From: a virus
Reading direction: 5' to 3' (one strand)
IMG/VR virus record: IMGVR_UViG_3300045988_113377
Coordinates: 1 to 64,000 of that record
Length of the DNA: 64,000 nucleotides
The number at the start of each line of letters is the position of its first letter. Within the stretch, counting starts at the first letter, position 1. The notes below the pieces were generated by a model that saw nothing but the letters and a program-made list of their open reading frames with translations, made no database searches and was not told where the DNA came from. This document shows positions 222-50,379 of the stretch, piece by piece. A program made the translations under genes and the position numbers.

Positions 222-422
222 TTGGGGGTAAGAGGAATAGGAGGTAGTGATGGTATAGTATATGCTAAGGTAGTTAGCTGTGCAGAAGTTAAGGATTACA
301 GTTGTGAGGGGTGTATTTTTTATGATTGTTATAAGGATAAATGTTTGTTATCGCGTAGTGATAGTTGTATAGATGGAGACTGGATTTGTAGGTACGAACA
401 GGCTGCCATAGAGGGGAAGTAG
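222..422 (+). CDS. small Cys-rich hypothetical protein (66 aa)
   Basis: ORF preceded by GGAGG-like SD; seven Cys, mostly paired (CxxC), could bind metal. Confidence 0.35.
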   Translation: MGVRGIGGSDGIVYAKVVSCAEVKDYSCEGCIFYDCYKDKCLLSRSDSCIDGDWICRYEQAAIEGK

Positions 423-454
423 GCGGCGCCTTGGGCTAAGGCCTGCGGTTGTAG

Positions 455-490
455 GTGGAACGTAGGTCGGAGCAGAGCCGGAACAGTTTA
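455..490 (+). other. tRNA-fragment-like sequence (GTAGGTCGG...CCGG T-stem-like, non-canonical loop)
   Basis: shares the string gtaggtcgg...ccgg with the T-arm of the element at 611-735 but loop is agcagag instead of ttcgatt. Confidence 0.3.
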
Positions 491-610
491 TTGTGGAACT
501 AAAAAAAATAAAAAGGAGGAGATGGCGATATGAAAAAGGCATTTAAGATATTTTCTATTATGTTTGTCATAGAAATAGTGCTGATAGCTATTTTAGATGC
601 TATGGCGTAA

Positions 611-735
611 GTGAGAAAAATTTCTTCATTAATTTTCTTATGCTTTAGACAGAGTGCTCCCGTCTGCGAAGATCGGAGCACTTGCTTTATGGGATTCATG
701 GTGCGGTAGGTCGGTTCGATTCCGGCGATCTCACA
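611..735 (+). tRNA. tRNA-like element 1 (canonical T-arm GTCGG-TTCGATT-CCGGC; acceptor-like pairing GTGAGA/TCTCAC); non-canonical length 125 nt, may be intron-containing or degenerate
   Basis: GGTTCGATTCC T-loop motif at 713-723; 6-bp pairing 611-616 with 729-734; internal 9-bp hairpin 654-662/675-683; full cloverleaf could not be completed by hand. Confidence 0.35.
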
Positions 736-763
736 CAACATTAAAAACAAAGGAGGAAAGAAA

Positions 764-1111
764 ATGAAAGATGGTATTACATTACATCCAGAACACGGAT
801 TGAATCCGTCTATAGAAGTCTGCATGATATGTGGCGAAGAGATGGGGATTGCTTTATTAGGGAATAACATCAAAGGGCAGGCGCCGCATCATATATGTAC
901 GGGAGAAATATGTGACAATTGCAAAAAGATAATAGATGACGGAGGCTGTTTTATTATCGAAGTCGAGGATGGATCAGATCAAAAGAATCCGTATCGTACA
1001 GGGAGATATTGTGCGATAAAAAAAGAGGCAGCAAAGAAAATACTTGGACATGAACATAGTGTTGTGTACATGGAAAAGTCTGCATACAGTCAAATAATAC
1101 CACAAAAATAA
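764..1111 (+). CDS. hypothetical protein with CxxC...CxxC zinc-ribbon-like motifs (115 aa)
   Basis: strong SD AAAGGAGG 8 nt upstream of ATG; CMICGEE...CDNCKK cysteine pairs. Confidence 0.55.
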   Translation: MKDGITLHPEHGLNPSIEVCMICGEEMGIALLGNNIKGQAPHHICTGEICDNCKKIIDDGGCFIIEVEDGSDQKNPYRTGRYCAIKKEAAKKILGHEHSVVYMEKSAYSQIIPQK

Positions 1112-1119
1112 AGAAGAAT

Positions 1120-1434
1120 ATGTTTACAAAAGAAGAGCGATTATTCATATGGAAAAAGGTATATGAGATGATTGATAGGTTAGAGGATGGGGAATACATA
1201 TGTGTTGCGTTAAGAAATGTAGTGTTTATGTATTTCAAAACACATAAAAATATCTATGAGTTTCGTTCAGACGAAATGGTGAGAATATATTTCCCGGAAT
1301 TGGAGGAGAAGATAAGTATGGCCACAGAACCAGAGGAAACAAGAACGTTTTATGGGTGGTTTGGTTGTATTAGTCCAGAAACGAAGGAGGTAAGGCTGAA
1401 TATTGTGAAAGATATTATAAAAGAGTTAGAATAG
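1120..1434 (+). CDS. hypothetical protein (104 aa)
   Basis: ORF tightly following previous gene; no recognisable domain. Confidence 0.5.
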   Translation: MFTKEERLFIWKKVYEMIDRLEDGEYICVALRNVVFMYFKTHKNIYEFRSDEMVRIYFPELEEKISMATEPEETRTFYGWFGCISPETKEVRLNIVKDIIKELE

Positions 1435-1493
1435 TATTTTTGTTAATCTATTTTATTCATCAAATTAAGTTTTGGGTTTTGGCATGTCGGTTC

Positions 1494-1588
1494 GTGAGAA
1501 TAGGCATGTCTATTTGTGTATCATAGAGGGATGGCGCGGCGTGCCGGTATGTATGTGCCGGTCCTGGTTCGATTCTGGGCATCTCACA
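1494..1588 (+). tRNA. tRNA-like element 2 (T-arm CCTGG-TTCGATT-CTGGG; same acceptor pairing GTGAGA/TCTCAC as element 1); 95 nt, type-II-like length
   Basis: GGTTCGATTC motif 1566-1575; 6-bp pairing 1494-1499 with 1582-1587; upstream 1481-1500 carries a degenerate copy gtcggttcg-tgagaa of the element-1 T-arm; cloverleaf not completed by hand. Confidence 0.35.
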
Positions 1589-1607
1589 AACAATAAAACA
1601 TAATTAT

Positions 1608-7062: not shown

Positions 7063-7088
7063 GGTGGAGCCTGCCCTGCCATGAGGTC

Positions 7089-7120
7089 GGCCTGGCTGTC
7101 TGTGGCCAGGGTCGTATATT
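7089..7120 (+). terminator. GC-rich hairpin (CCTGGC/GCCAGG), likely transcription-unit boundary
   Basis: 7091-7096 pairs 7105-7110; preceded by second GC-rich hairpin 7040-7075; unusual GC-rich patch in AT-rich genome. Confidence 0.4.
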
Positions 7121-7193
7121 AGTCAGATAGTGAACAATGAAAACGATACAAATATTATGAATTTAGGCAATCATATACCTAAAATAATAGTTT

Positions 7194-7511: not shown

Positions 7512-7970
7512 GTGATTATGAAAAATACGATAGTAACAGGCAGCCTAATTGTATTCAGTGACGGATTTGTTTGGAAAAGATTGTCCAACGAAAAAGCCTA
7601 CAAGATATGGGTGTCGGCAGAAAATGAAGATTTTGAGTTATACAAGGTGAGAGTAGATGATGAGTCCGAGTCATTGATAGAAAGTTTGGAAGATTTACAG
7701 GATGCCTTTAAACAGGGTCATTATGTATGTATAGAAGTAGGTAAGCTACCATATAGCATAGGTTTGAATTACTTACGAAATCTACAAGAGTTATCGGTGG
7801 AAGCTGTGGATTATCTATCAGGACTAAAAGAATGTAGCAGGGAAGAGGCATTTAACATCATTCAAAAGTGGGCTAAAGAGTTTACGGAAAAATATGAAAA
7901 TTATGATTTTAATGGTTCATACTATGATGTAATAGATGCATTTATTGATGAGAAGTTAAAAACTATTTAA
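7512..7970 (+). CDS. hypothetical protein (152 aa)
   Basis: ORF only. Confidence 0.5.
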   Translation: MIMKNTIVTGSLIVFSDGFVWKRLSNEKAYKIWVSAENEDFELYKVRVDDESESLIESLEDLQDAFKQGHYVCIEVGKLPYSIGLNYLRNLQELSVEAVDYLSGLKECSREEAFNIIQKWAKEFTEKYENYDFNGSYYDVIDAFIDEKLKTI

Positions 7971-9668: not shown

Positions 9669-10730
9669 ATGAACAATTCAATGGTCGCTCACTTGTGGGC
9701 TCATGAACAAGAAGAATCAGCATCAGGGAGCAATTTCTTCTTTGAAGGTGCAAGTATTTATTCTTATGGGTATCACTTTGAAATCGGAAGAATAGTAAAA
9801 AACAAACAAGGGAAGAAAGCATACCTGATAAATGAAGATTATTATTCTGCTACCACGAGCAAACATCAATGCTATGCTCGTAATGCGATACCAACTTGGG
9901 CAATGGTTCTCAGTGTAGGGGATAATATATCGGATACTGGTAATATGAGGTTCGTTGCCAGCAAACTGGAATCAATTAAGAAGTCTATTGAAAAATACAA
10001 AAGAGCTAAAACAGAATTATCTTATACAGATATTTGGGGCGCTTTTGGGAATATGATGGATTACATTCAGTTCTTTAACATGGGAACTGCTAAGAGTATC
10101 CTTAAAAAGAGTGCTAATGATTGGCTTGGAACCAATCATGAATTATCCAAGAGCGGAGATAGTATCAAGCGTAAGCACGTACATGAATTAAAACGCATCT
10201 TTCAAATTTTATTGGATCATCAAGGATTAAAAGTGTTAGGGACCGTAAATGTGATTGTTGATGAAGTTTGCGGGGAAGGTACATGGATTAAGTATTCAGA
10301 AAGATCTGAAAGATGGAGAAAGGGTGAGGAAGAAAGAGAAAGAATAAAATTAGAGAGATTAAGAAAGGAAGAAGAAGCCCGTTACAAGGATTTTGATGAA
10401 AAACTGGAAGAGTGGAAGTCAGGAGAAATCAATTTCTTGAATACACCTTTCTATATTCCTGGTGAAAAACCTAACGCCTGGATTCGTATAAAAGGAAATA
10501 TTATTGAGACAAGTAAACAGATAAAGATTGGAATAGCAGAAGCCAGAAAACTGTGGCGGGCTGTGTCGGCAATGCACCGGGGCGCCGAGTTTCGGCACGG
10601 TCTGGTGGAGGACATCACCGGTCACCAGTGGAGTCTAAATCGGTACGAAAACAATTTGCTAACCGCTGGATGTCATAGGATAGCATATAACGAAATGGAG
10701 AGAATAGCAAAACAACTGGGATGGGTTTAA
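9669..10730 (+). CDS. hypothetical protein with charged coiled-coil segment (353 aa)
   Basis: RWRKGEEERERIKLERLRKEEEARYKDFDEKLEEWK. Confidence 0.55.
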   Translation: MNNSMVAHLWAHEQEESASGSNFFFEGASIYSYGYHFEIGRIVKNKQGKKAYLINEDYYSATTSKHQCYARNAIPTWAMVLSVGDNISDTGNMRFVASKLESIKKSIEKYKRAKTELSYTDIWGAFGNMMDYIQFFNMGTAKSILKKSANDWLGTNHELSKSGDSIKRKHVHELKRIFQILLDHQGLKVLGTVNVIVDEVCGEGTWIKYSERSERWRKGEEERERIKLERLRKEEEARYKDFDEKLEEWKSGEINFLNTPFYIPGEKPNAWIRIKGNIIETSKQIKIGIAEARKLWRAVSAMHRGAEFRHGLVEDITGHQWSLNRYENNLLTAGCHRIAYNEMERIAKQLGWV

Positions 10731-10776
10731 GTAACCCATCTTGTTTTATTGATTACATAATTAAAAATAAAAAGAT

Positions 10777-11519
10777 ATGGAAAATCCAATTATTGTTCCG
10801 TTTGATTTAAATACGGCGAGAAAAATTAAAAGCGGAGAAATAGAAGGTTCAGTATTAATTGGTAATATTAAAATAGAATTTGTATATGAGTCAAAAGACT
10901 GTGCAGATCGTTATAATTTACTTTTTGTAAAAAAGATGAATCTGGGATAAGTGCTATATATGCCGATACAGAAGGTCGTACTTTTTTCAACAACGTTCTG
11001 GAATTGGAAGTAGAGGCTGGAGCGTATTTTAAGAAAGGAGATGTATTAATAAGCACGCTTGGGAACCCATTTATATATAATGGTATTATTAATAGAGAAG
11101 GAGATATGGGATGCATATATGGTATATCGGCATATGGCGAGATTACATCTGAAGAAGTTCCAATATGGACAAGTGTGTGTGGTGAGGATAAATCCAAGTA
11201 TGTTAGATTAGCCACAGAGGAAGAGAAAAAATCTTTTGCTGAAAGAATTGCTAATACAGAAAACCTTAAAAAAGCAGGAATAATAAAACAATATCTAAGT
11301 GAGTACGAATACTTGCTGACTAAAGAAAAGAAATGCGATTTTAAGCCATTCGATCAAGTCTTGGTGAGAGCAAGCAATTTGGGAAATTGGAATCTACACT
11401 TATCTGCCAGAGTAAGAGAAGAAGAATACAAATATGAATGCTTGGGAGGTTTGAGATACAAAGAGTGTATTCCATACCAAGGAAATGAGCATCTTTTAGG
11501 AACTAATAAAAGCAAATAA
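10777..11519 (+). CDS. tandem paralog of N-terminal two-thirds of 11524..12705; two frames (10777-10950 and 10917-11519) joined by putative -1 frameshift at A_AAA_AAG 10929-10935
   Basis: frame-1 product MENPIIVPFDLNTARKIKSGEIEG... and frame-0 product ...SAIYADTEGRTFFNNVLELEVEAG... are colinear homologs of consecutive segments of the downstream protein; classical slippery heptamer at the junction. Confidence 0.5.
10929..10935 (+). promoter_or_regulatory. candidate -1 programmed ribosomal frameshift slippery heptamer A_AAA_AAG
   Basis: heptamer in phase with upstream frame; -1 shift enters the long downstream frame. Confidence 0.4.
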
Positions 11520-11523
11520 GATC

Positions 11524-12705
11524 ATGGAACAGAGAACAGCAACAATTCCGTTTGATTTAGAAACGGCGAAAAAAATAAACATAGGGGAAATAGCAGGTCG
11601 TATTGTGACAGAGAAAGGACAAAATAGAGCAGAAATCGTATATGAAGACAATTCGTCAAATTGTCCGTTATTGGTTGTAATTCATTCGATTTCTGTATCG
11701 GCAGACTGGTTTTCTGCTACAGGAAAAGCACTTAGCAGCGAAAATCGCCTCCTTCTTGAAGTCCCGGAATATACTACGTTTAAAGATGGAGAGGTGTTAA
11801 GTAATAAAGATGGTAGCTATATCTTTATTTTAAATACACATGGGAAATATTTAACATCTTTTTATGCCTCTTTAAATCAAAAAGGTATTCTTAAAATAGA
11901 AGATGGTTTATCTGCTTGGGAAAATCAGATAGAAAAATACAGATTTGCCACTGAGTCCGAAAGACAAAAGTTGGTTGACGCATTAAAGGCAAGCAAAGAA
12001 CCTGAAGCTAAAGAGTATCTGAAACGCTTCTTCGGGATTGAAGAAAAACCGAAATATGATTTTAAGCCGTTTGACAAAGTGCTGGTAAGAAAAGAAGGAA
12101 ATAAAAAATGGAATATCAGTTTGTTTGCAAGGGAAATTGTGGACGATTATAATGGATTGCCTTATAAGTACGAATGTTCCAATGGAACATTATGGGATTA
12201 TTGTATTCATTTTGAGGGTAATGAATGTCTTTTAGGAACTACTGAAAATCCAGAAAAAATGAAAATGGTAAAATTATCTGATTTTTATCCTTATGACAGA
12301 AACAAAGGAGGAATACAGGAATTGCATCATAAAATTGAGTCCAAAACACTTCAGTATTGGGGTGAAGATAGTGGTATTCTGATCGGCATCACTCCGATAT
12401 ATAAGAGACGTTTGTGGAGCGAAGAAGTGAAAGTTGTAAATGATAAAATGACAAATATGAAAACAAGAACATACGAAGGGGTGCAGCACGGAGACTGGGT
12501 AAGATGTGTCTTATGTGGAGCACGAATGCTTCTTCCATGTGGAGCTGACAAATGCCCAGAATGTAGCAGTGAAGGTACTTTAACGTGGGTAGATGAAGAT
12601 AAGCAAGAAATGGATGCTAAACATCTGGATTGTCTTGTTCCAATACGCAAATTGGAGTTACAAGAATATCTGTCCCCAGAAATTTTGAAAATGGAACATA
12701 TATGA
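11524..12705 (+). CDS. hypothetical protein (393 aa), paralog of preceding gene; C-terminal Cys-rich Zn-ribbon-like region
   Basis: shared IPFDL...GEI N-terminus and FKPFDxVLVR...W domain with 10777..11519; CVLCGARMLLPCGADKCPECSSEGT. Confidence 0.6.
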   Translation: MEQRTATIPFDLETAKKINIGEIAGRIVTEKGQNRAEIVYEDNSSNCPLLVVIHSISVSADWFSATGKALSSENRLLLEVPEYTTFKDGEVLSNKDGSYIFILNTHGKYLTSFYASLNQKGILKIEDGLSAWENQIEKYRFATESERQKLVDALKASKEPEAKEYLKRFFGIEEKPKYDFKPFDKVLVRKEGNKKWNISLFAREIVDDYNGLPYKYECSNGTLWDYCIHFEGNECLLGTTENPEKMKMVKLSDFYPYDRNKGGIQELHHKIESKTLQYWGEDSGILIGITPIYKRRLWSEEVKVVNDKMTNMKTRTYEGVQHGDWVRCVLCGARMLLPCGADKCPECSSEGTLTWVDEDKQEMDAKHLDCLVPIRKLELQEYLSPEILKMEHI

Positions 12706-12775
12706 AAATAGAATACATACAAAATGTAAATGCGGTGCAGTCACTATCAGATTTGATAATGGAGCTTCGAATAGC

Positions 12776-13000
12776 ATGTTTTGGGAAACATTTGAAAAAT
12801 TGGATTTGGATGCTGGTGATGCCACATGGCTTCACCAGTCCTGCTGCTGCGACCACTGCGTCAACCATTGGGGAATAGACTTATGCGATTGTGGATCAGA
12901 ACATAAGGTAGGAGAATGTGAATGTGGATCCCAAAAGGCACATGATACATTAGGGATTAAATATGATTCGTTTGGAGCAATATTAAAAAACTTTGGATAA
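12776..13000 (+). CDS. small Cys/His-rich protein (74 aa)
   Basis: CCCDHCVNHWGIDLCDCGSEHKVGECECGS. Confidence 0.4.
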   Translation: MFWETFEKLDLDAGDATWLHQSCCCDHCVNHWGIDLCDCGSEHKVGECECGSQKAHDTLGIKYDSFGAILKNFG

Positions 13001-13476
13001 TGGATATAGTGAGCAAATACACCGCCTTGTTAGGACAAAAGAAACTAAAAGAATCATTTGTGAAAGATTTGGAGCTTGTATTATCAAGAAAAGATCCTAA
13101 TATAGAAAAAGGGAAACTTAATTTCATTCGTTATTCAGAAATGAAAAATTGGAGTGTAAGAGAGTTGTTTGGTGAAGACTTGGAACAAGCTGATAGGGCT
13201 TTAATAAACAAGGTGTATCATATGCTATTTGATATAGGTTCGGATTTTGAATCGGTTATAAGAATGCTATATAGCTTTCGTAACGGACCTAAATCGGGGA
13301 TAAAAGTGGCGGATCCAGAGGATAATTACGAATGGACTAACAAGGACGGAAATGAAAAATATTCTACTAAAAATCTCCCAAAAGCGCATTTTAGATGGGA
13401 TTGGAGAAGATATACCTTATCAAAAGAATCAGTTGATAAAATAACGGAGTTTGTAGACACCATATTAAAATCATAG
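13000..13476 (+). CDS. hypothetical protein (158 aa)
   Basis: ORF only. Confidence 0.5.
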   Translation: MDIVSKYTALLGQKKLKESFVKDLELVLSRKDPNIEKGKLNFIRYSEMKNWSVRELFGEDLEQADRALINKVYHMLFDIGSDFESVIRMLYSFRNGPKSGIKVADPEDNYEWTNKDGNEKYSTKNLPKAHFRWDWRRYTLSKESVDKITEFVDTILKS

Positions 13477-13583
13477 AGAAATTATGAACGAAGTAATTTT
13501 AAGCAACATGTTAGGATGTCAGCGGATTAAAGCACAAAGACGTATCGTTTGCTATCTCACTGACGGAGCATGATAGCGTACAA

Positions 13584-13955
13584 TTGCTTGACGATGATAG
13601 CCGTGAAAAATCCGGAAGTGAGACATATTACGAACGTAAATGTGATGCGCTGTTTGACATTGACGGACGCGGCAATACGGAACGCCTTGTGGCCAGAAAT
13701 CCAAAGTTGAAAAATTTGCTGAAAGATGGCGAGTATATACCATCTCTTGGTCAATTAAATTTAATGGCCCATTATATGGACGAACTAAACAAAGCATTCG
13801 CTTATGTTTCGGCATCTCCCCTCTCCTCGACGTGGTATAGATCCAGTACCGAGAGCAGCCCGAGCGTCGCGTGGTACGTGGACTTCTCCATTGGTAGCGC
13901 GTACTACAGTGACAAGTACAACAGTAGCAGGGTTCGGGCGGTAATTGATTTTTAA
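13584..13955 (+). CDS. hypothetical protein (123 aa), 3' half unusually GC-rich
   Basis: ORF; local GC-rich patch 13790-13950. Confidence 0.3.
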   Translation: MLDDDSREKSGSETYYERKCDALFDIDGRGNTERLVARNPKLKNLLKDGEYIPSLGQLNLMAHYMDELNKAFAYVSASPLSSTWYRSSTESSPSVAWYVDFSIGSAYYSDKYNSSRVRAVIDF

Positions 13956-13966
13956 AAAGGATTACA

Positions 13967-14764
13967 ATGATAACATCGGTAAAAATAAAAGACAACACAA
14001 AAACTCCTTTTGAATATGCTTCTGACATAGAAGCATTTGAAAATGGCAGAGAATTTATTTTCAAGCCAGGAGTGAACGTAATTATAGGTAAAAACGGTAG
14101 TGGAAAATCAACCTTGCTTAACATCATATCAATGTATGCGTTATGTGAGAAATCCATGTGCTCTGAAATACCGATCGAGGCACTGGATTTTCCACCTATA
14201 TTTGATGATGATGACAAGGTTCTTGATGGGATTGACATATCATCCGATTATGCAGGGAAAGTATTCCGTTTATTGCCATCGGCGGAGATGAATCGAGATA
14301 GTGTATTAAAAAACATCAGCAACTTAGATTTGTATGTGAATAATATTCGAAGATCTTATGGAGAGAAAGTGGTGTTATCATTGGAATCACTTTTCAATTT
14401 AATGTTCGGTCAAAAGGATTATACATTTCCAATACAAGATCTTGTAGAATACAAGAAAAAATCAAATGCGTTTTGGATTAAAAGAATTGATAACCTGTTG
14501 AAGTATTATGAAAGAAACCGCATAACATTAACAGAAAGCAGTTTTGAATACACGGTTCTCATGGATGAGCCAGATAGGAATCTTGACATTGACAACATAA
14601 TGCAAATTTATAATGTATTGTCATTCCATAAACCACAAACACAAATTATAGCCATAGTACACAATCCGGCATTGATTTACAAGTTAAGCAAATTAGATTG
14701 TGTGAATTTCATAGAGATGACAGAAGGGTATCTTAATAAAACTTGTACATTTGTGTCCAATTGA
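13967..14764 (+). CDS. ABC-type/AAA_21-like ATPase (Walker A GKNGSGKST, Walker B LMDEPDRNLD, H-loop IVHNP), 265 aa, no fused effector domain
   Basis: motifs read from translation. Confidence 0.65.
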   Translation: MITSVKIKDNTKTPFEYASDIEAFENGREFIFKPGVNVIIGKNGSGKSTLLNIISMYALCEKSMCSEIPIEALDFPPIFDDDDKVLDGIDISSDYAGKVFRLLPSAEMNRDSVLKNISNLDLYVNNIRRSYGEKVVLSLESLFNLMFGQKDYTFPIQDLVEYKKKSNAFWIKRIDNLLKYYERNRITLTESSFEYTVLMDEPDRNLDIDNIMQIYNVLSFHKPQTQIIAIVHNPALIYKLSKLDCVNFIEMTEGYLNKTCTFVSN

Positions 14765-22424: not shown

Positions 22425-22771
22425 AAAGAAAAATTAGAAGAACAGGAGAGATAATAGACGTAATCACTTTCAGTAGCTCAACTACAAGAAGCGACCATGA
22501 CAGAATACAGTTCTATGGTGATAATGGGAATGTGATAAGTGAGAGTTTAAATTTTTATCTCGATACCCTTCCTGTAAATGACGAAAACAAAGATGTAGAC
22601 TGGGAGCAACGTAGATTCGATCTTATCAAGGCTTATTCTATTGAGTTTGTTAAAGCACAAAATAGAAAAGGTGAAATAGATTGCGGAGTATATGTACCAG
22701 ATGTGGTGTCATGGTCTATAACTATAGCAGATAGAATCATAGAGGCGATGAGAGGAGTTAAAAATGCTTGA
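22421..22771 (+). CDS. hypothetical protein (116 aa)
   Basis: ORF only. Confidence 0.45.
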   Translation: MKRKIRRTGEIIDVITFSSSTTRSDHDRIQFYGDNGNVISESLNFYLDTLPVNDENKDVDWEQRRFDLIKAYSIEFVKAQNRKGEIDCGVYVPDVVSWSITIADRIIEAMRGVKNA

Positions 22772-28630: not shown

Positions 28631-30331
28631 ATGACAACAATCATGTACGTGTCAGCTATCTTAGCTGTAGTGATTATTTTGACAATCATCGGAGTCTTAT
28701 CAAGGTATCGTAGATGTAAGCCTAATCAGGTCTTGGTCGTTTATGGTAAGACAGGTGGGGAAAAGAAATCGGCGAAATTATATCATGGTGGAGCGGCATT
28801 TGTCTTGCCTATTATTCAAAGCTATGATATTTTGTCTATGGAGCCTATGCAAATAGATTGTAGGCTCACCGGTGCTTTGTCGTCTCAAAATATCAGAGTG
28901 GATGTGCCTACTACTATTACAGTAGCAATCAGCACAAATCCTGAAATTATGCAGAATGCAGCAGAAAGGCTTTTGGGGATGGATACTGAATCTACTGAAA
29001 ATCTTATTACGGATATTGTTTATGGCCAAATGCGTTTGATCATTGCTGAAATGACGATTGAAAAACTTAATTCTGACAGGGATGAGTTTTTGGATAAGGC
29101 AAGAAAAAACATTGATAACGAACTTAATAAGTTAGGTCTTTACCTCCTAAATATCAACATCAGTGACATCAGAGACGAAGCCGGCTATATCATGAATCTT
29201 GGCAAAGAAGCTGAAAGTAAGGCCCTGAACGAAGCACAGGCTAATATCGAAGAACAGGAAAAGCTGGGTGCTATTAAGATTGCTGTACAGCAAAAGGAAA
29301 AAGAAACGGCTGTAGCTAATACCCAAAAAGAGCAAGAGATTCAAATTGCCTATACTGAAAAAGAAAAGGAGACAATAGTAGCTGAAACGAAGAAAGAAAA
29401 AGAAATAGCCTTGGCTTTAACCGATAAAGAAAAACAGATCGGTGTAGCTCAAGCAGATAGAGACAGGGCTGCGGTTATCGCAAAAACTTTAACCGACAAG
29501 GAATCGGCGATCGTAAGATCTAAGGCAGAACTTGAAGTAAATAAAGCCGAGGCTGAAAGGATGGAAGAAGTCGGAAAGAATAAGGCTGAAGCTGACAAGG
29601 AAGCAGCTATAGCAATACAAGACTCTGAAGCTCAGATTAAGAAGGCTGAGGCTGAGAAAAATGCGTCTATAGGATACAACAATGCCCAGAAGGAGGTTGC
29701 TGTGTCAGTATCAGAACTACAAATTATCAAAGCTCAATCAGAAAAGAAGGCCGGAGAAGAAAAAGTTAAATCGGAAGCGGCTGTAAAAACGGCAAAAGAG
29801 CTTGCTGATAAAGAAGTGGAAGAAGCTAAGGCTAAGAAAGTTCAGGCTGCGCTTAAGGCTGAAAAGATTGTGCCGGCTGAAACCCAGAAGGAAGAGGCTA
29901 TCTTGCAAGCTGATGCCGAGGCCGAGAAGATCAAACGCCGGGCTGAGGCTGAGGCATCAGCACATTTGGCAAAAGCTGAGGCAGAGGCAAAAGCTATTCA
30001 GATGAAGCTGGAGGCAGAAGCCGAAGGTAAGAAAAAGTCGTTGATGGCAGAAGCCGACGGATTTAAGGCTATGGTGGAAGCAGCAGAATCCAATCCTCAG
30101 ATAGCCATCCAGTACAAGATGGTTAATCAGTGGAAAGAAATTGCTGGAGAACAGGTTAAGGCGTTCGAGCACATTAACCTCGGAAATACCACGGTATTTG
30201 ACGGCGGTCAGAACAGTACCGGTAATTTCCTTAACAATGTTGTTAAGACCGTCGCTCCGGCATTGGGAGTCATTGATCAGCTTCCGATTGCAGATACTTT
30301 AAAGAAATTAAAAGGAGATGACAAAAAATAA
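28631..30331 (+). CDS. flotillin-like SPFH/band-7 protein (N-terminal TM, SPFH domain, long EA-rich coiled coil)
   Basis: TM helix, SPFH-like region, about 250 aa of AEAEA/KAEAE repeats typical of flotillin/YqiK. Confidence 0.75.
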   Translation: MTTIMYVSAILAVVIILTIIGVLSRYRRCKPNQVLVVYGKTGGEKKSAKLYHGGAAFVLPIIQSYDILSMEPMQIDCRLTGALSSQNIRVDVPTTITVAISTNPEIMQNAAERLLGMDTESTENLITDIVYGQMRLIIAEMTIEKLNSDRDEFLDKARKNIDNELNKLGLYLLNINISDIRDEAGYIMNLGKEAESKALNEAQANIEEQEKLGAIKIAVQQKEKETAVANTQKEQEIQIAYTEKEKETIVAETKKEKEIALALTDKEKQIGVAQADRDRAAVIAKTLTDKESAIVRSKAELEVNKAEAERMEEVGKNKAEADKEAAIAIQDSEAQIKKAEAEKNASIGYNNAQKEVAVSVSELQIIKAQSEKKAGEEKVKSEAAVKTAKELADKEVEEAKAKKVQAALKAEKIVPAETQKEEAILQADAEAEKIKRRAEAEASAHLAKAEAEAKAIQMKLEAEAEGKKKSLMAEADGFKAMVEAAESNPQIAIQYKMVNQWKEIAGEQVKAFEHINLGNTTVFDGGQNSTGNFLNNVVKTVAPALGVIDQLPIADTLKKLKGDDKK

Positions 30332-48796: not shown

Positions 48797-50017
48797 TTAC
48801 TTTAATATAATCGGATGCCTCTTCCCTCTAATGAGTTTAAACTTTTTGCGTGAAACATCTTTTGAATTTTCTCCGTTGAAATCCCTGATATTGAAACTCC
48901 CTGATTTTCTCCTTCCATAAACAAAACATATTTTATTATTATACAACACTTTATCAAACAACCTAAAACCAAAAACCTCAAAAGGAGCTTGATTGTTTTT
49001 CTTCTTTCCTCCTTTTAAAATTTTCATTTTATGTATTTGCCTATTATGCCTACGAATTAAACGTTTTAAATATTGACATCCGATTCGTTTCGCATTAATG
49101 TTCTTAGAAATGACAAACGCGTCGGATGTATGGGATTTTTCAATCCCGTATTTAATCCGATTATGTTTCGTAATGTAACCAAACGTCATAGAAACTCTGT
49201 CGTATCTGGATCTCAGTTCTTCATACAACTTCCATTTCATGATCCCCATTACGGCTGCGTCGCGTAGCGACTTGCCTCTTCTGATCTTTAAATCTATATT
49301 ACCTTTATGGTATTCTTTGTGACAAGTTTCACATAAGGTAATAAGATTGGATGGGGAATCTCCACCTGTCTTTCGTGATTCAATATGATGAACGTTAAGA
49401 ATCGCATCTTTCGATTTCCCTTTACAATACTGACATTTATGTCCATCTCTTGCTAAAACATATTCCCTAACGTTCCAAAATCCAAGTTGATCACCCTCCT
49501 GATATTCTTTACCAGATATCTCAGGATTGTTAATCTTTTGAGTATCGAATTGAGCTACCTCAACAACAATACGAGATATTGGTAATATAGAACATACATT
49601 GTCAATAACACGAATATGAGCGTCTACTTTGTACCGCACCGAAGGTGCTATCCATCCTTGACGTTTGTTTTTCACCCTGTTGTCAAAACGAGGTTTTCTA
49701 TATCTCAATCTATTTCGTCTCGTTCTTCTCGACTCTCTTCTGGTAGACAAAAGATCTACAATATCATTTCTAAGAATTACCTCACTACTGTAAAGTTCTT
49801 TGCTTTTCGTCGTAGCTGATAGACCAACATGCTTAGTTCCAGCATCAACGCCTAACACAATTTCTTGTTTGTAATCGGATGTGACGTACATTAATTTGAT
49901 GGTAAACGGACATAGGTTCACAACGACTGCCTTGTTTTCTTTAAGCAGTCGTCTTACCTTACCATGCCTTGTTGTAGGCATCATAGGTTTACCATTTATG
50001 TCTTGTACGTACACCAT
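48797..50017 (-). CDS. iscB: IscB, OMEGA RNA-guided nuclease (PLMP domain, RuvC-I, Arg-rich bridge helix, RuvC-II, HNH, RuvC-III, C-terminal TAM-interacting domain)
   Basis: N-terminus VYVQDINGKPMMPTTRHGKVRRLLKENKAVVVNLCPFTIKL matches the IscB PLMP domain; GVDAGTKHVG (RuvC-I Asp); RRESRRTRRNRLRYRKPRF (bridge helix); VVEVAQFD (RuvC-II Glu); CQYCKGKS...NVHHIE...CETCHKEYH (HNH); KSHTSDAFVI (RuvC-III His/Asp). Confidence 0.85.
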   Translation of the reverse strand: MVYVQDINGKPMMPTTRHGKVRRLLKENKAVVVNLCPFTIKLMYVTSDYKQEIVLGVDAGTKHVGLSATTKSKELYSSEVILRNDIVDLLSTRRESRRTRRNRLRYRKPRFDNRVKNKRQGWIAPSVRYKVDAHIRVIDNVCSILPISRIVVEVAQFDTQKINNPEISGKEYQEGDQLGFWNVREYVLARDGHKCQYCKGKSKDAILNVHHIESRKTGGDSPSNLITLCETCHKEYHKGNIDLKIRRGKSLRDAAVMGIMKWKLYEELRSRYDRVSMTFGYITKHNRIKYGIEKSHTSDAFVISKNINAKRIGCQYLKRLIRRHNRQIHKMKILKGGKKKNNQAPFEVFGFRLFDKVLYNNKICFVYGRRKSGSFNIRDFNGENSKDVSRKKFKLIRGKRHPIILK

Positions 50018-50379
50018 ATCTACAAACGTTTTTAATGTTTATTCAACATAAGTCAGGAATATTTCATCCTGTTAGTACCCATCGCCAATGTTATAAGAGG
50101 TTTTGATGCAAGCAACACTGTTTCGCAAATACACTACTCCTGTTTAATCGCTTGCCTTAGGGCTACGGACTTGGGCAAACATCCGTAGGTAACTATCTAT
50201 TCTCAAATAACGTAGCCTTAGTTTCAAGGCTTAGGCTAATATCCGGACCATTTCTGGTACATTAAAACCTTATAATGAAATTATATTGTTTTAATGTTAT
50301 TTCGGATATACAGATATACTTTTTACCCCCAATCGATTCTTTTTATCTTACGACCTAATTTAAGCCGTTCTAAAGCCTG
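50018..50379 (-). ncRNA. candidate omega-RNA of IscB (structured non-coding leader directly upstream, same strand)
   Basis: 362-nt ORF-free interval with multiple mutually exclusive helices (GGCTACGG/CCGTAG/CGTAGCC, TAGCC/GGCTA) consistent with a pseudoknotted scaffold; position matches known IscB-omegaRNA architecture. Confidence 0.55.

What the first reader, a model, noticed from the sequence alone, without database searches (positions are those of the whole stretch)
440..1600. Cluster of non-canonical tRNA-like elements sharing an identical acceptor stem
Two elements (611-735 and 1494-1588) each have a textbook T-arm (GGTTCGATTC) and the same 6-bp terminal pairing GTGAGA/TCTCAC. Each has one extra nucleotide between T-stem and acceptor strand and an A-A mismatch at the seventh position. 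They differ greatly in length (125 vs 95 nt). Element 1 contains a 9-bp internal hairpin. Fragments of the same T-arm recur at 455-490 and 1481-1500. I could not complete a canonical cloverleaf by hand, so these may be intron-containing or unusual tRNAs, tRNA pseudogenes, or a tRNA-derived structured RNA family.
Basis: seen in the sequence. Interest (0 to 1): 0.6.

Follow-up and report, generated by a model that had tools for sequence, protein, structure and literature searches.

The report
Phage tRNA-like "top-half" RNA elements
Two conserved structured RNAs in the early-gene region of a crAss-like gut phage carry a textbook tRNA T-arm and an acceptor-like stem but no anticodon arm, so they are tRNA mimics rather than tRNA genes, and similar mini elements sit in the ribosomal-RNA operon spacers of the Bacteroidota lineage the phage is thought to infect.

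Summary
GGTTCGATTC occurs exactly twice in 64 kb (0.12 expected), and GTGAGA/TCTCAC flank both copies at the stated coordinates. No detector calls a tRNA or tmRNA.

The window is a ~150-kb crAss-like gut phage, 94.5% identical to csAssE-Sib over 400-1700. Both elements recur in about 85-125 related contigs. Variation preserves the T-stems, the internal hairpin of element 1 (three compensatory pairs) and a 7-bp hairpin in element 2.

The 3' strand (G/C)AUCUCA pairs with a nearby 5' strand (690-696; 1527-1533) and abuts the T-stem directly. That gives a 45-62-nt tRNA "top half" and removes the "extra nucleotide". Paralogue covariation at 7:66, two informative variants (L022, L075) and uncompensated loss of GTGAGA in rare variants support this. 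The distal pairing is thermodynamically more stable, so it is not excluded.

A third, decayed copy lies at 404-490.

Bacteroidota 16S-23S spacers hold covariation-supported mini tRNA-like elements of the same architecture. A model built from them ranks element 1 first in the window (E about 0.03).

Function is inferred only. Most likely the elements are RNase P/RNase Z-recognised punctuation or a released tRNA-mimic small RNA.

The parts
404..490 (+). Element 0: decayed third copy. It overlaps the end of ORF 222-422 and has a T-arm-like hairpin GTCGG-AGCAGAG-CCGGA at 465-481.
   Evidence: It shares CATAGAGGG with element 2 (407 vs 1522) and GTAGGTCGG with element 1 (462 vs 706), each found only twice in the window. 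The region is a GC-rich island (0.63-0.67). The T-loop is lost, there is no complementary acceptor strand, and the hairpin region is indel-ridden and variable among contigs.
611..616 (+).
   Evidence: It is perfectly complementary to 729-734. It is mutated without compensation in L040 (GTAATA) and L109 (GTAAAA), and one pair is broken in L075. Overall 95.5% of cells are paired.
652..683 (+). Internal 13-bp bulged hairpin of element 1 with a GCGA (GNRA) tetraloop, followed by U-rich GCUUUAU.
   Evidence: Three pairs show compensatory double changes (A-U/G-C, U-A/C-G, C-G/A-U) and 98.8% of cells are paired across 26 distinct variants.
690..735 (+). Element 1 core, a tRNA 'top half'. 5' acceptor strand UGGGAUU 690-696; linker CAUGGUGCGGUAG 697-709; T-stem 710-714/722-726; T-loop UUCGAUU 715-721; 3' acceptor strand GAUCUCA 727-733; tail C734 A735.
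   Evidence: The T-stem is 100% paired with a UC<->CU swap. The proximal acceptor is 99.5% paired, and L075 changes three 3'-strand bases yet keeps pairs 2-7 (only the terminal 1:72 pair becomes C.A). This region is the top hit of the rRNA-spacer mini-element model over the whole window (24.5 bits, E about 0.03, full length).
1481..1513 (+). 5' flank of element 2. It holds a T-arm half-echo GTCGGTTCG (1486-1494), the distal GTGAGA (1494-1499) and the hairpin AUAGG-CAUG-UCUAU (1500-1513). GGCATGTC is a direct repeat at 1481 and 1503.
   Evidence: The distal strand is 100% pairable with 1582-1587 in 33 variants. The hairpin is 95.8% paired. The whole flank is absent in deletion variant L014, which keeps the core.
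1527..1588 (+). Element 2 core. 5' acceptor strand AGGGAUG 1527-1533; linker 1534-1543; 7-bp hairpin CCGGUAU-GUAU-GUGCCGG 1544-1561; T-stem 1563-1567/1575-1579; T-loop 1568-1574; 3' strand CAUCUCA 1580-1586; tail C1587 A1588.
   Evidence: The T-stem is 99.4% paired with 4 varying pairs (CCUGG/CUGGG, UCUGG/CCAGG, CCCGG/CCGGG). The hairpin is 98.3% paired with 5 varying pairs. In L022 the 3' strand is CAUUCAA and the proximal strand GGAAUG, so G4-C69 becomes A-U by a double change while the distal pairing loses 2 of 6 pairs. The hairpin is deleted independently in L050 and L087. ARAGORN -ps80 and the Rfam tRNA-Sec alignment both pick 1526-1587.
530..610 (+). Context: 26-aa hydrophobic small ORF with a Shine-Dalgarno-like AAGGAGG. 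Its stop codon abuts element 1.
   Evidence: synonymous and conservative differences against csAssE-Sib.
764..1434 (+). Context: two small ORFs (764-1111, a Cys-rich 115-aa protein matching phrog_11852; and 1120-1434) lying between the two elements. The next ORF starts at 1608.
   Evidence: Element 1 ends 28 nt before the ATG at 764, and element 2 ends 19 nt before the ATG at 1608.

Best explanation
Positions 690-735 and 1527-1588 are two paralogous, selectively maintained structured RNAs derived from tRNA. Each keeps only the 'top half' of a tRNA: a 7-position acceptor-like stem joined directly to a canonical 5-bp T-stem with a UUCGAUU loop, connected by a short G-rich linker (plus a dispensable hairpin in element 2). 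There is no D-arm and no anticodon arm. They lie between small early genes, on the coding strand, in a crAss-like gut phage. A third copy (404-490) has decayed.

Shown: they are conserved, the T-arm and hairpins are real helices, and they are not tRNA, tmRNA or YrlA genes.

Favoured but not proven: the proximal acceptor pairing.

Inferred: an acceptor/T-arm stack is the minimal determinant for RNase P, RNase Z, the CCA-adding enzyme and T-loop modification enzymes. The host's tRNA-processing machinery would therefore cut the polycistronic early transcript at these elements, RNase P at the 5' side and RNase Z at the 3' side. The upstream mRNA would end in its stable hairpin, the downstream mRNA would start about 20-30 nt before its start codon, and a 45-62-nt tRNA-like RNA would be released. 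This is the logic of plant-mitochondrial t-elements, of MALAT1/mascRNA, and probably of the mini tRNA-like elements found here in Bacteroidota 16S-23S spacers.
For: Non-random occurrence: exact GGTTCGATTC appears 2 times against 0.12 expected.

Conservation: element 1 is found in 89 loci, element 2 in 84 and element 0 in 85. Sampling anchored on the 5' side gives 125 and 113 copies.

Helices: the element 1 hairpin has 3 pairs with double changes; the T-stems are 99-100% paired with 3-4 varying pairs each; the element 2 hairpin has 5 varying pairs.

Proximal acceptor: it leaves no spacer before the T-stem. Pair 7:66 is U.G or U-A in element 1 and G-C or G.U in element 2. L022 and L075 change the 3' strand and keep the proximal pairing but lose distal pairs. 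Distal GTGAGA is lost uncompensated in L040 and L109. G-run length changes fall just outside the proximal helix. L014 deletes everything 5' of the core. ARAGORN -ps80 and the Rfam tRNA-Sec alignment choose the proximal strand.

Host-lineage analogue: mini tRNA-like elements lie between tRNA-Ala and 23S in Bacteroidota rRNA operons. Six of their pairs show double-sided changes, and 0 of 500 shuffles reach the observed covariation score. The model built from them ranks element 1 first in the window.

Context: a stable hairpin sits immediately upstream of the mini element in element 1 and in the unrelated viral families L041, L042 and L092. Phage tRNAs lack an encoded CCA, and csAssE-Sib encodes a CCA-adding/poly(A)-polymerase-like enzyme, PNK/phosphatase, Rsr and a YrlA-like RNA.
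Against: There are no expression or end-mapping data, so processing is pure inference.

Within the phage family no acceptor pair shows a double-sided change except in single contigs (L022).

The distal pairing is 100% maintained in element 2. In constrained folding it is more stable than the proximal fold: -38.8 vs -35.4 kcal/mol for element 1 and -31.0 vs -25.1 for element 2.

A partner pairing at 6 or more of 7 positions within 75 nt is expected about once by chance (my estimate). One such 'mini' reading, next to rsr, turned out to be a YrlA-like RNA.

Five of the 8 sequences used to train the spacer model were ascertained with a phage-derived 3' pattern. A sequence-only profile from the 3 independently ascertained ones hits only the T-arm (E 0.15 and 2.5).

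Minimum-free-energy z-scores for the cores are unremarkable.
Confidence: 0.4

Rival explanations
1. The elements are 125-nt and 95-nt RNAs closed by the distal GUGAGA/UCUCAC helix. Element 2 would be a cloverleaf-like fold with a D-like hairpin, a 4-bp 'anticodon-like' hairpin, a long variable arm and a T-arm. Alternatively the RNA may switch between this closed fold and the tRNA-like fold.
For: The 6-bp Watson-Crick complement is identical in both elements. It is 100% pairable in 33 element 2 variants, including A-U/G.U alternation. It is the thermodynamically preferred fold.
Against: Two unpaired nucleotides separate it from the T-stem, so it cannot stack as in tRNA. It is lost without compensation in L040 and L109 and weakened in L075 and L022. 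It shows no double-sided change. The anticodon-like loop varies from 7 to 10 nt. L014 lacks the distal half. The analogous spacer elements and the other viral mini elements have no distal strand.
Confidence: 0.25
2. The elements act as free small RNAs rather than as cis processing signals. They would be tRNA mimics that titrate or decoy a tRNA-binding factor (a host tRNA-targeting defence nuclease, a modification enzyme, EF-Tu or an aaRS). Alternatively they would be minihelices charged by AlaRS, since they keep G2-C71, G3.U70 and G4-C69 as in Bacteroidota tRNA-Ala.
For: The acceptor positions 2-4/69-71 match tRNA-Ala sequences seen in the same lineage. From established knowledge, G3.U70 minihelices are AlaRS substrates (Francklyn & Schimmel 1989) and phage tRNAs can counter tRNA-cleaving defences (PMC11555353, listed; abstract only read). 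The phage relative encodes RNA-repair and CCA-adding-like enzymes.
Against: G3.U70 becomes A-U in L010 and L029, and G-C in L075 and L022. Position 73 is C, not A. The 1:72 pair is U-A, A.A or G.A. No CCA is encoded. No anticodon loop is available for anticodon nucleases to recognise.
Confidence: 0.2
3. The elements are non-functional relics of a former phage tRNA gene cluster (tRNA pseudogenes) that persist only because the family is young.
For: The family is shallow (84% identity or more). Element 0 shows that decay does happen. Recombinants and deletions occur: L119, L014, L050 and L087. Overall divergence of the elements is similar to that of the flanking ORFs.
Against: Substitutions in four helices are overwhelmingly pair-preserving: 95-99% of cells are paired against 26-54% when the partner is slid. 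The T-loop is essentially invariant in about 240 copies (two single-base variants and L022's UUCGAAU), whereas element 0 in the same genomes has lost it. L022 keeps a compensated T-arm with an alternative canonical loop, UUCGAAU.
Confidence: 0.1
4. The elements are Y-RNA-like partners of the phage Ro60 (Rsr) protein.
For: The close relative csAssE-Sib encodes Rsr. Bacterial and phage Y RNAs contain tRNA-like domains with a T-arm (PMC4201824).
Against: A YrlA-like RNA already sits next to rsr (L122 22601-22705, 28.5 bits, E 6e-4), about 75 kb from these elements. The elements have no YrlA match. They lack the T-arm, acceptor-like hairpin, D-arm order and the closing Ro-binding stem, and an ORF start follows within 20-30 nt.
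Confidence: 0.04

Closest known systems
tRNA-like processing signals: plant-mitochondrial t-elements, MALAT1/MEN-beta mascRNA, and the tRNA-like structure upstream of Haloferax 5S rRNA that is cleaved by tRNase Z (from my own knowledge, not read here)
   Same: All are partial tRNA mimics embedded in a longer transcript, with an acceptor/T-arm stack as the recognisable module. Here a stable structure lies just upstream (the element 1 hairpin 652-683), as in MALAT1, and no decoding function is possible.
   Different: Nothing comparable is described for bacteriophage mRNAs as far as the searched literature shows. Cleavage was not tested here. The elements are smaller than mascRNA and have no D- or anticodon-arm analogue.
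Mini tRNA-like element of Bacteroidota 16S-23S rRNA spacers
   Same: Same order of parts: 5-7-bp acceptor-like stem, then AUGGU immediately after the 5' strand (CAUGGUG in element 1), an 11-13-nt linker or an inserted hairpin (as in element 2), a UUCGAUU T-arm, and a 3' tail A-C. It comes from the lineage that crAss-like phages are known to infect (general knowledge; the host of this phage was not determined). The spacer model ranks element 1 first in the window.
   Different: Sequence similarity outside the T-arm is weak. The spacer elements have an A.A or A.G mismatch at 7:66 and AU-rich stems. No gut Bacteroides spacer could be examined. Homology versus convergence is unresolved, and the function of the spacer element is itself unknown.
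tmRNA tRNA-like domain and minihelix-Ala
   Same: Acceptor stem plus T-arm without an anticodon arm. G2-C71, G3.U70 and G4-C69 are present in both elements.
   Different: There is no mRNA-like domain or pseudoknots, and ARAGORN's tmRNA search is negative. Position 73 is C, the 1:72 pair is weak or mismatched, and G3.U70 is not invariant.
YrlA / bacterial Y RNA (Rfam RF02553)
   Same: A tRNA-mimicking non-coding RNA with a T-arm, known from phages. The phage relative encodes Rsr.
   Different: The topology is different, there is no Rfam match at these elements, and a separate YrlA-like RNA lies beside rsr.
Phage T4 stable RNAs C and D (species 1 and 2) in the T4 tRNA cluster (from my own knowledge)
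   Same: Small non-tRNA stable RNAs encoded among phage tRNA-region small ORFs, with tRNA-like termini and unknown function.
   Different: Not compared at the sequence level here. The T4 RNAs are 120-140 nt and co-transcribed with genuine tRNAs, whereas this window has no tRNA.

Membership tests
tRNA (Rfam RF00005; ARAGORN) | Detected by a tRNA covariance model or ARAGORN at normal thresholds | tested here: not met
   ARAGORN finds 0 genes in the window and none with introns, mitochondrial modes or -ps. Rfam has no tRNA hit at gathering score or at E<=10.
tRNA (Rfam RF00005; ARAGORN) | T-arm: 5-bp stem and 7-nt loop UUCRANY | tested here: met
   GUCGG-UUCGAUU-CCGGC and CCUGG-UUCGAUU-CUGGG. The stems are 99-100% paired across variants.
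tRNA (Rfam RF00005; ARAGORN) | Anticodon arm with an invariant 7-nt loop, and a D-arm with G18 G19 | tested here: not met
   Neither is present in the cores. The only candidate loop (element 2, AUAGAGG) varies from 7 to 10 nt, and the D-like hairpin has a CAUG tetraloop.
tRNA (Rfam RF00005; ARAGORN) | 7-bp acceptor stem contiguous with the T-stem | tested here: inconclusive
Met with the proximal strand (7/7 in element 1, 6/7 in element 2). The comparative evidence favours the proximal strand and thermodynamics favours the distal one.
tmRNA | tRNA-like domain plus an internal tag-peptide reading frame and pseudoknots; detected by ARAGORN or Rfam | tested here: not met
   ARAGORN -m finds none. 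Rfam beta_tmRNA gives 6.4 bits, T-arm only. At 45-125 nt the elements are too short.
YrlA Y RNA (RF02553) | Closing Ro-binding stem, then T-arm, acceptor-like hairpin and D-arm; encoded next to rsr | tested here: not met
   No YrlA match at the elements. The order of modules is different. In csAssE-Sib, rsr is about 75 kb away and has its own YrlA-like RNA.
tRNA-like processing element (t-element / mascRNA type) | Cleaved by RNase P at its 5' side and RNase Z at its 3' side in vivo | not testable with these tools
   This needs RNA end mapping or in vitro cleavage. Only the structural prerequisite (acceptor/T-arm stack) is present.
tRNA-like processing element (t-element / mascRNA type) | Embedded in a longer transcript between functional RNAs | tested here: inconclusive
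   The elements lie on the coding strand between closely spaced + strand ORFs. No sigma-70-type terminator was found, and the TAnnTTTG promoter motif is not enriched, although one copy lies at 1435. The transcription units are unknown.
Bacteroidota rRNA-spacer mini tRNA-like element (defined here) | Acceptor-like stem, AUGGU after the 5' strand, optional hairpin, UUCGAUU T-arm, 3' tail A-C | tested here: met
   Element 1 aligns full-length to model R2 (24.5 bits, E about 0.03, best hit in the window). Element 2 is not found by R2: it has an inserted hairpin and AUGGC instead of AUGGU.
Bacteroidota rRNA-spacer mini tRNA-like element (defined here) | Located between tRNA-Ala and 23S rRNA, flanked by GTTCTTTGACAT-type (boxA-like) motifs | tested here: not met
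   The phage elements lie between protein-coding genes, and no such motif is seen nearby.
Alanine-accepting minihelix | G3.U70 with A73 and a 3' CCA | tested here: inconclusive
   G3.U70 is present in the window copies and in most variants, but it is A-U or G-C in L010, L029, L075 and L022. N73 is C, and no CCA is encoded.

The most novel reading that the evidence does not exclude
A crAss-like phage has copied, or convergently evolved, the mini tRNA-like module that Bacteroidota use in their 16S-23S rRNA spacers. It deploys several copies in its early operon to plug into the host's tRNA/rRNA-processing machinery. In that reading the phage elements and the host spacer elements together form an undescribed, widespread class of anticodon-less 'tRNA top-half' RNAs. 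They may toggle between a closed fold (distal helix) and a tRNA-like fold, and they may be CCA-tailed or alanylated.
Probability: 0.2. Interest if true: 0.75.

Novelty: new variant of a known kind. Interest (0 to 1): 0.55.

Why it matters
If these elements are cut out by RNase P and RNase Z, they would be the first described case of tRNA-like punctuation of a phage polycistronic mRNA. That would explain how a highly abundant group of gut phages shapes early-gene expression without terminators.

The side finding may matter independently. A covariation-supported mini tRNA-like element sits between tRNA-Ala and 23S rRNA in many Bacteroidota. It is absent from Rfam and from the searched literature, and it points to an unstudied step of rRNA maturation in that phylum.

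Practically, the elements are invisible to tRNA finders and are currently overlapped by spurious 'hypothetical protein' calls. In csAssE-Sib, the 159-nt CDS WOZ57404.1 lies over element 2 (L001 2541-2699).

Tried and rejected
1. Canonical, intron-containing, mitochondrial-type or selenocysteine tRNA, and tmRNA: rejected.

2. A third pairing in element 1, GUGCGGU/AUCUCAC, which extends the T hairpin and is the minimum-free-energy fold of the core: rejected because the commonest variant, GUGCAGC, breaks it.

3. The long-range stem 1503-1510/1538-1545 in element 2: 98.5% pairable but with one-sided changes only, and incompatible with the 7-bp hairpin register. Left open.

4. My 'mini' reading of the T-arm RNA beside rsr: wrong. 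It is YrlA-like. This showed that an acceptor partner pairing at 6 or more of 7 positions is expected by chance.

5. The apparent conservation of the 3' end AU.UCAC among the other viral and genomic hits: an artefact of my search pattern, so not used as evidence. Most genome hits were chance matches inside coding sequence.

6. More divergent syntenic loci via homologues of ORF 764-1111: L245 and L246 carry identical elements. The 60%-identity relative L244 has none. P0073 returned no DNA.

7. Re-sampling the family with 5'-anchored patterns: no new discriminating 3'-strand variants.

8. A covariance model from element 1 alone (R1) finds element 2 only at 12.9 bits.

9. A third model from independently ascertained spacer elements could not be built because MAFFT misaligned the 5' strands. 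The sequence-only HMM substitute hit only the T-arm.

10. attP or integration-site remnant: unlikely. No integrase was noticed among the annotated products of the close relative csAssE-Sib (not searched for specifically), and a complementary 5' strand is present.

11. Literature searches for phage or crAss tRNA-like elements and for spacer tRNA-like elements returned nothing relevant.
Full report
**What the window is.** Region 400-1700 is 94.5% identical to the right end of phage csAssE-Sib (OR575929.1; 151 kb, human gut). That record is annotated with crAss-type structural proteins, six tRNAs, a DGR, two TnpB genes, Ro60/Rsr, PNK/phosphatase and a CCA-adding/poly(A)-polymerase-like gene. The window holds the early and replication genes, including a DnaB-like helicase, a primase-like protein, a PD-(D/E)XK nuclease and an SNF2-type helicase. 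All genes in the first ~40 kb are on the + strand. The finding lies among very small + strand ORFs at the left end.

**Checking the observation.**
- Exact GGTTCGATTC occurs twice in 128 kb of both strands, against 0.12 expected; no shuffle reaches 2.
- The two sites share a 38-nt 3' block at 76% identity (family D10).
- Three intergenic GC-rich islands mark 391-480, 661-720 and 1501-1590 in an AT-rich background.
- ARAGORN finds no tRNA or tmRNA in the whole window. It also finds none in 380-1700 with introns, mitochondrial models or the -ps option. Only at -ps80 does it emit a 62-nt 'tRNA-???' at 1526-1587.
- Rfam at gathering score finds only a HEARO RNA elsewhere in the window.
- Rfam in E-value mode on 300-1800, 600-745 and 1475-1600 gives only a 6.4-bit T-arm match to a tmRNA model and a 13.8-bit tRNA-Sec alignment at 1526-1587.
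- So the elements are real and non-random, and they are not tRNA or tmRNA genes.

**Conservation.** A pattern scan of IMG/VR returned 119 loci, most from one family of 80-155-kb gut phage contigs carrying both elements. BLAST of the three regions finds element 1 in 89 loci, element 2 in 84 and the 404-490 region in 85, all at 84% identity or more. Scans anchored on the 5' side give 125 and 113 copies.

The family is shallow, so statistical power is limited. Even so, the substitutions are strongly structure-preserving.
- In element 1 (26 distinct variants), the internal hairpin 652-683 has three pairs with compensatory double changes, and the T-stem is 100% paired, including a UC-to-CU swap.
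- In element 2 (33 variants), the T-stem has four varying pairs (CCUGG/CUGGG, UCUGG/CCAGG, CCCGG/CCGGG) and is 99.4% paired. The hairpin 1544-1561 has five varying pairs and is 98.3% paired.
- When the partner column is slid, pairing falls to 26-54%.
- The T-loop is essentially invariant in about 240 copies (two single-base variants and L022's UUCGAAU).
- The region 404-490 shares two 9-mers with the other elements. It has lost the T-loop and the acceptor complement, and it is indel-ridden among contigs. I read it as a decayed paralogue.
- A further tRNA-like element lies about 1.9 kb upstream, outside the window (L121 minus strand 500-583; L246 about 600-680). Its hairpin shows a compensatory change.

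**Which strand pairs with the 3' end.** That leaves two unpaired nucleotides before the T-stem. A closer partner exists in both elements: UGGGAUU (690-696) with GAUCUCA (727-733), and AGGGAUG (1527-1533) with CAUCUCA (1580-1586). With these partners the stem runs straight into the T-stem, as in tRNA.

Evidence for the proximal stem:
- Pair 7:66 is U.G (U-A in L075) in element 1 and G-C or G.U in element 2.
- L075 changes three bases of the element 1 3' strand (AAUUCCA). Proximal pairs 2-7 survive, although the terminal 1:72 pair becomes C.A, while one distal pair breaks.
- L022 changes three bases of the element 2 3' strand (CAUUCAA) together with G4-to-A in the proximal strand, a G-C to A-U double change. 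It keeps five contiguous pairs next to a compensated T-arm, while the distal helix loses two central pairs.
- Distal GTGAGA is mutated without compensation in L040 and L109.
- G-run length variation in element 2 falls just 5' of the proximal helix. In the distal model it would fall inside an 'anticodon-like' loop, making that loop 7-10 nt.
- L014 has lost everything 5' of the core. L050 and L087 have independently lost the 1544-1561 hairpin.
- The only tRNA-model alignments obtained use the proximal strand.

Evidence for the distal stem:
- It is a perfect 6-bp Watson-Crick match, identical in both elements.
- It is 100% pairable in all element 2 variants.
- Constrained folding makes it 3.4 kcal/mol (element 1) and 5.9 kcal/mol (element 2) more stable than the proximal fold.
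- I estimate that a partner pairing at 6 or more of 7 positions within 75 nt arises about once by chance. One such reading, beside rsr, proved to be a YrlA-like RNA.

My weighting is about 0.6 proximal, 0.25 distal, with the remainder for a two-state RNA.

**An analogue in the host lineage.** A genome scan with the same pattern gave mostly chance matches in coding sequence. Six Bacteroidia hits (Carboxylicivirga, Bacteroidales MAGs) were different: they lie in rRNA operons, after tRNA-Ile and tRNA-Ala and 150-200 nt before the 23S 5' end.

To remove the ascertainment bias on the 3' strand, I scanned metagenomes for a T-loop followed at 55-85 nt by the conserved spacer motif TTCTTTGACAT.
- Of the 120 matches, 67 were the T-arm of tRNA-Ala itself.
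- Several others were the same kind of mini element (L303, L366, L341, L346, L253 and others).
- They share a 5-7-bp AU-rich stem, AUGGUU directly after the 5' strand, an 11-13-nt linker or an inserted hairpin, a UUCGAUU T-arm and a 3' tail A-C.
- An 8-sequence alignment has six pairs with double-sided changes, and no shuffle reaches the observed covariation score.
- Rfam has nothing for these elements, and I found no paper on them.

A covariance model of these spacer elements, run unfiltered over the whole window, ranks element 1 first. The hit is 688-737, 24.5 bits, E about 0.03 with rough calibration, and full length. The proximal strand, AUGGU, the T-arm and the tail all align.

Two caveats apply. 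Five of the eight training sequences came from the phage-derived pattern. A sequence-only profile from the three independent ones sees only the T-arm (E 0.15 and 2.5). I therefore claim shared architecture, not proven homology. Some spacers carry a fuller tRNA-Ala-like pseudo-tRNA at the same position (L249, L271, L353), which suggests descent from a duplicated tRNA-Ala. The phage elements also keep G2-C71, G3.U70 and G4-C69, as in the tRNA-Ala genes of these operons.

**How it most likely works.** From established biochemistry, an acceptor stem stacked on a T-arm is sufficient for recognition by RNase P, RNase Z, the CCA-adding enzyme, TruB/TrmA and several aaRSs.

The elements sit on the coding strand. 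Element 1 begins after a 26-aa ORF and a covariation-supported hairpin, and it ends 28 nt before the next ATG. Element 2 ends 19 nt before the next ATG. The arrangement 'ORF, stable hairpin, mini tRNA-like element' recurs in the unrelated viral contig families L041, L042 and L092.

The best-supported mechanism is therefore host RNase P and RNase Z cleavage that punctuates the early polycistronic RNA and releases a small tRNA-like RNA. Only the structural prerequisites are shown. Cleavage, CCA addition and any trans-acting role are inferences.

Alternatives are a free decoy or sponge, an alanine-accepting minihelix, a closed non-tRNA fold, inert relics, or a Y-RNA-like partner of Rsr. They are weighed in the rival explanations.

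**Novelty and score.** tRNA-like processing modules and tRNA mimics are known kinds. An anticodon-less top-half mimic repeated in a crAss-like phage early operon, with a counterpart in Bacteroidota rRNA spacers, appears to be undescribed. I class it as a new variant of a known kind. Interest is 0.55: the RNA motif is solid and conserved, and its host parallel is suggestive, but there is no functional evidence and the fold ambiguity is unresolved.

Noticed in passing
window 48797-50309 (- strand): An IscB-type gene (RRXRR + HNH domains, 406 aa, 48797-50017) has a HEARO/omega RNA immediately upstream of it (50071-50309; Rfam RF02033, 100.6 bits, E 1.7e-19). This looks like an intact RNA-guided nuclease module inside the phage.
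   Followed up: partly
L187 3225-3266(-), L207 52-91(-), L241 89-130(-), L209, L221, L303, L366, L341, L346, L253: Bacteroidota rRNA operons carry a covariation-supported mini tRNA-like element between tRNA-Ala and the 23S 5' end. It has an acceptor-like stem, AUGGUU, a UUCGAUU T-arm and a 3' tail A-C, and it is flanked by GTTCTTTGACAT-type (boxA-like) motifs. It is not in Rfam, and no paper was found.
   Followed up: partly
L122 22601-22705 (csAssE-Sib 72601-72705): A YrlA-like Y RNA (Rfam 28.5 bits, E 6e-4, below the gathering score) lies just upstream of tRNA-Tyr, tRNA-Lys and the phage Ro60/Rsr gene. A Bacteroides-type TAtaTTTG promoter motif is at 22551. The three units share a leader motif, AGUGGUGAUGG.
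   Followed up: partly
L121 500-583 (- strand); L246 about 600-680: A fourth tRNA-like element of the same phage family lies about 1.9 kb upstream of element 1, outside the window: UGGUUGU...GCAACCU-C with a UUCGAUU T-arm. Its inner hairpin changes AUUC-GUACA-GGAU to AUCU-AUAUA-AGAU, a compensatory change.
   Followed up: partly
between window 745 and 746; L001 1464-1868: Many family members, including csAssE-Sib, carry a 405-nt ORF (134 aa, no annotation) inserted 11 nt after element 1. The window lacks it. The tRNA-like elements thus border a variable gene cassette.
   Followed up: no
L119, L014, L050, L087, L080: Rearrangements centred on the elements. L119 fuses the 5' part of element 1 to the 3' part of element 2 through the T-loop, deleting both intervening ORFs. 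L014 deletes from ORF 1120 into element 2. L050 and L087 lose the 1544-1561 hairpin between GCCGGT repeats. L080 duplicates TTGGCATGTCGGTTCGTGAGGA.
   Followed up: partly
L041 about 11100-11195; L042 about 7085-7170; L092 about 7880-7950; L004 about 7730-7800(-): Unrelated viral contigs carry 'ORF, stable hairpin, mini tRNA-like element' modules. In the L041, L042 and L092 families the module follows a 150-175-aa protein ending in ...LAQLGAxK. Their 3' ends resemble the phage elements only because of the search pattern, but the complementary 5' strands were not forced by it.
   Followed up: partly
window 222-422 and 1608-1856: The small Cys-rich ORFs flanking the cluster look like weak paralogues (CxxCIF[YF]...C.LS.S; 41% identity over 37 aa; E 0.002 for the single comparison). 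This is consistent with tandem duplication of 'ORF + element' modules.
   Followed up: partly
window 9669-12705: Two adjacent ORFs (353 and 393 aa, no Pfam match) share several 46-53-nt direct repeats about 720-750 nt apart (repeat families D4, D7, D8), so they appear to be tandem paralogues.
   Followed up: no
window 28631-30331: The phage encodes a 566-aa SPFH/Band-7 plus flotillin-domain protein, an unusual gene for a phage replication region.
   Followed up: no
window 12700-13970 vs csAssE-Sib 135757-137725: The csAssE-Sib CCA-adding/poly(A)-polymerase-like gene and a DUF3988 gene are absent from the syntenic position in this window. Other small ORFs occupy that place.
   Followed up: partly
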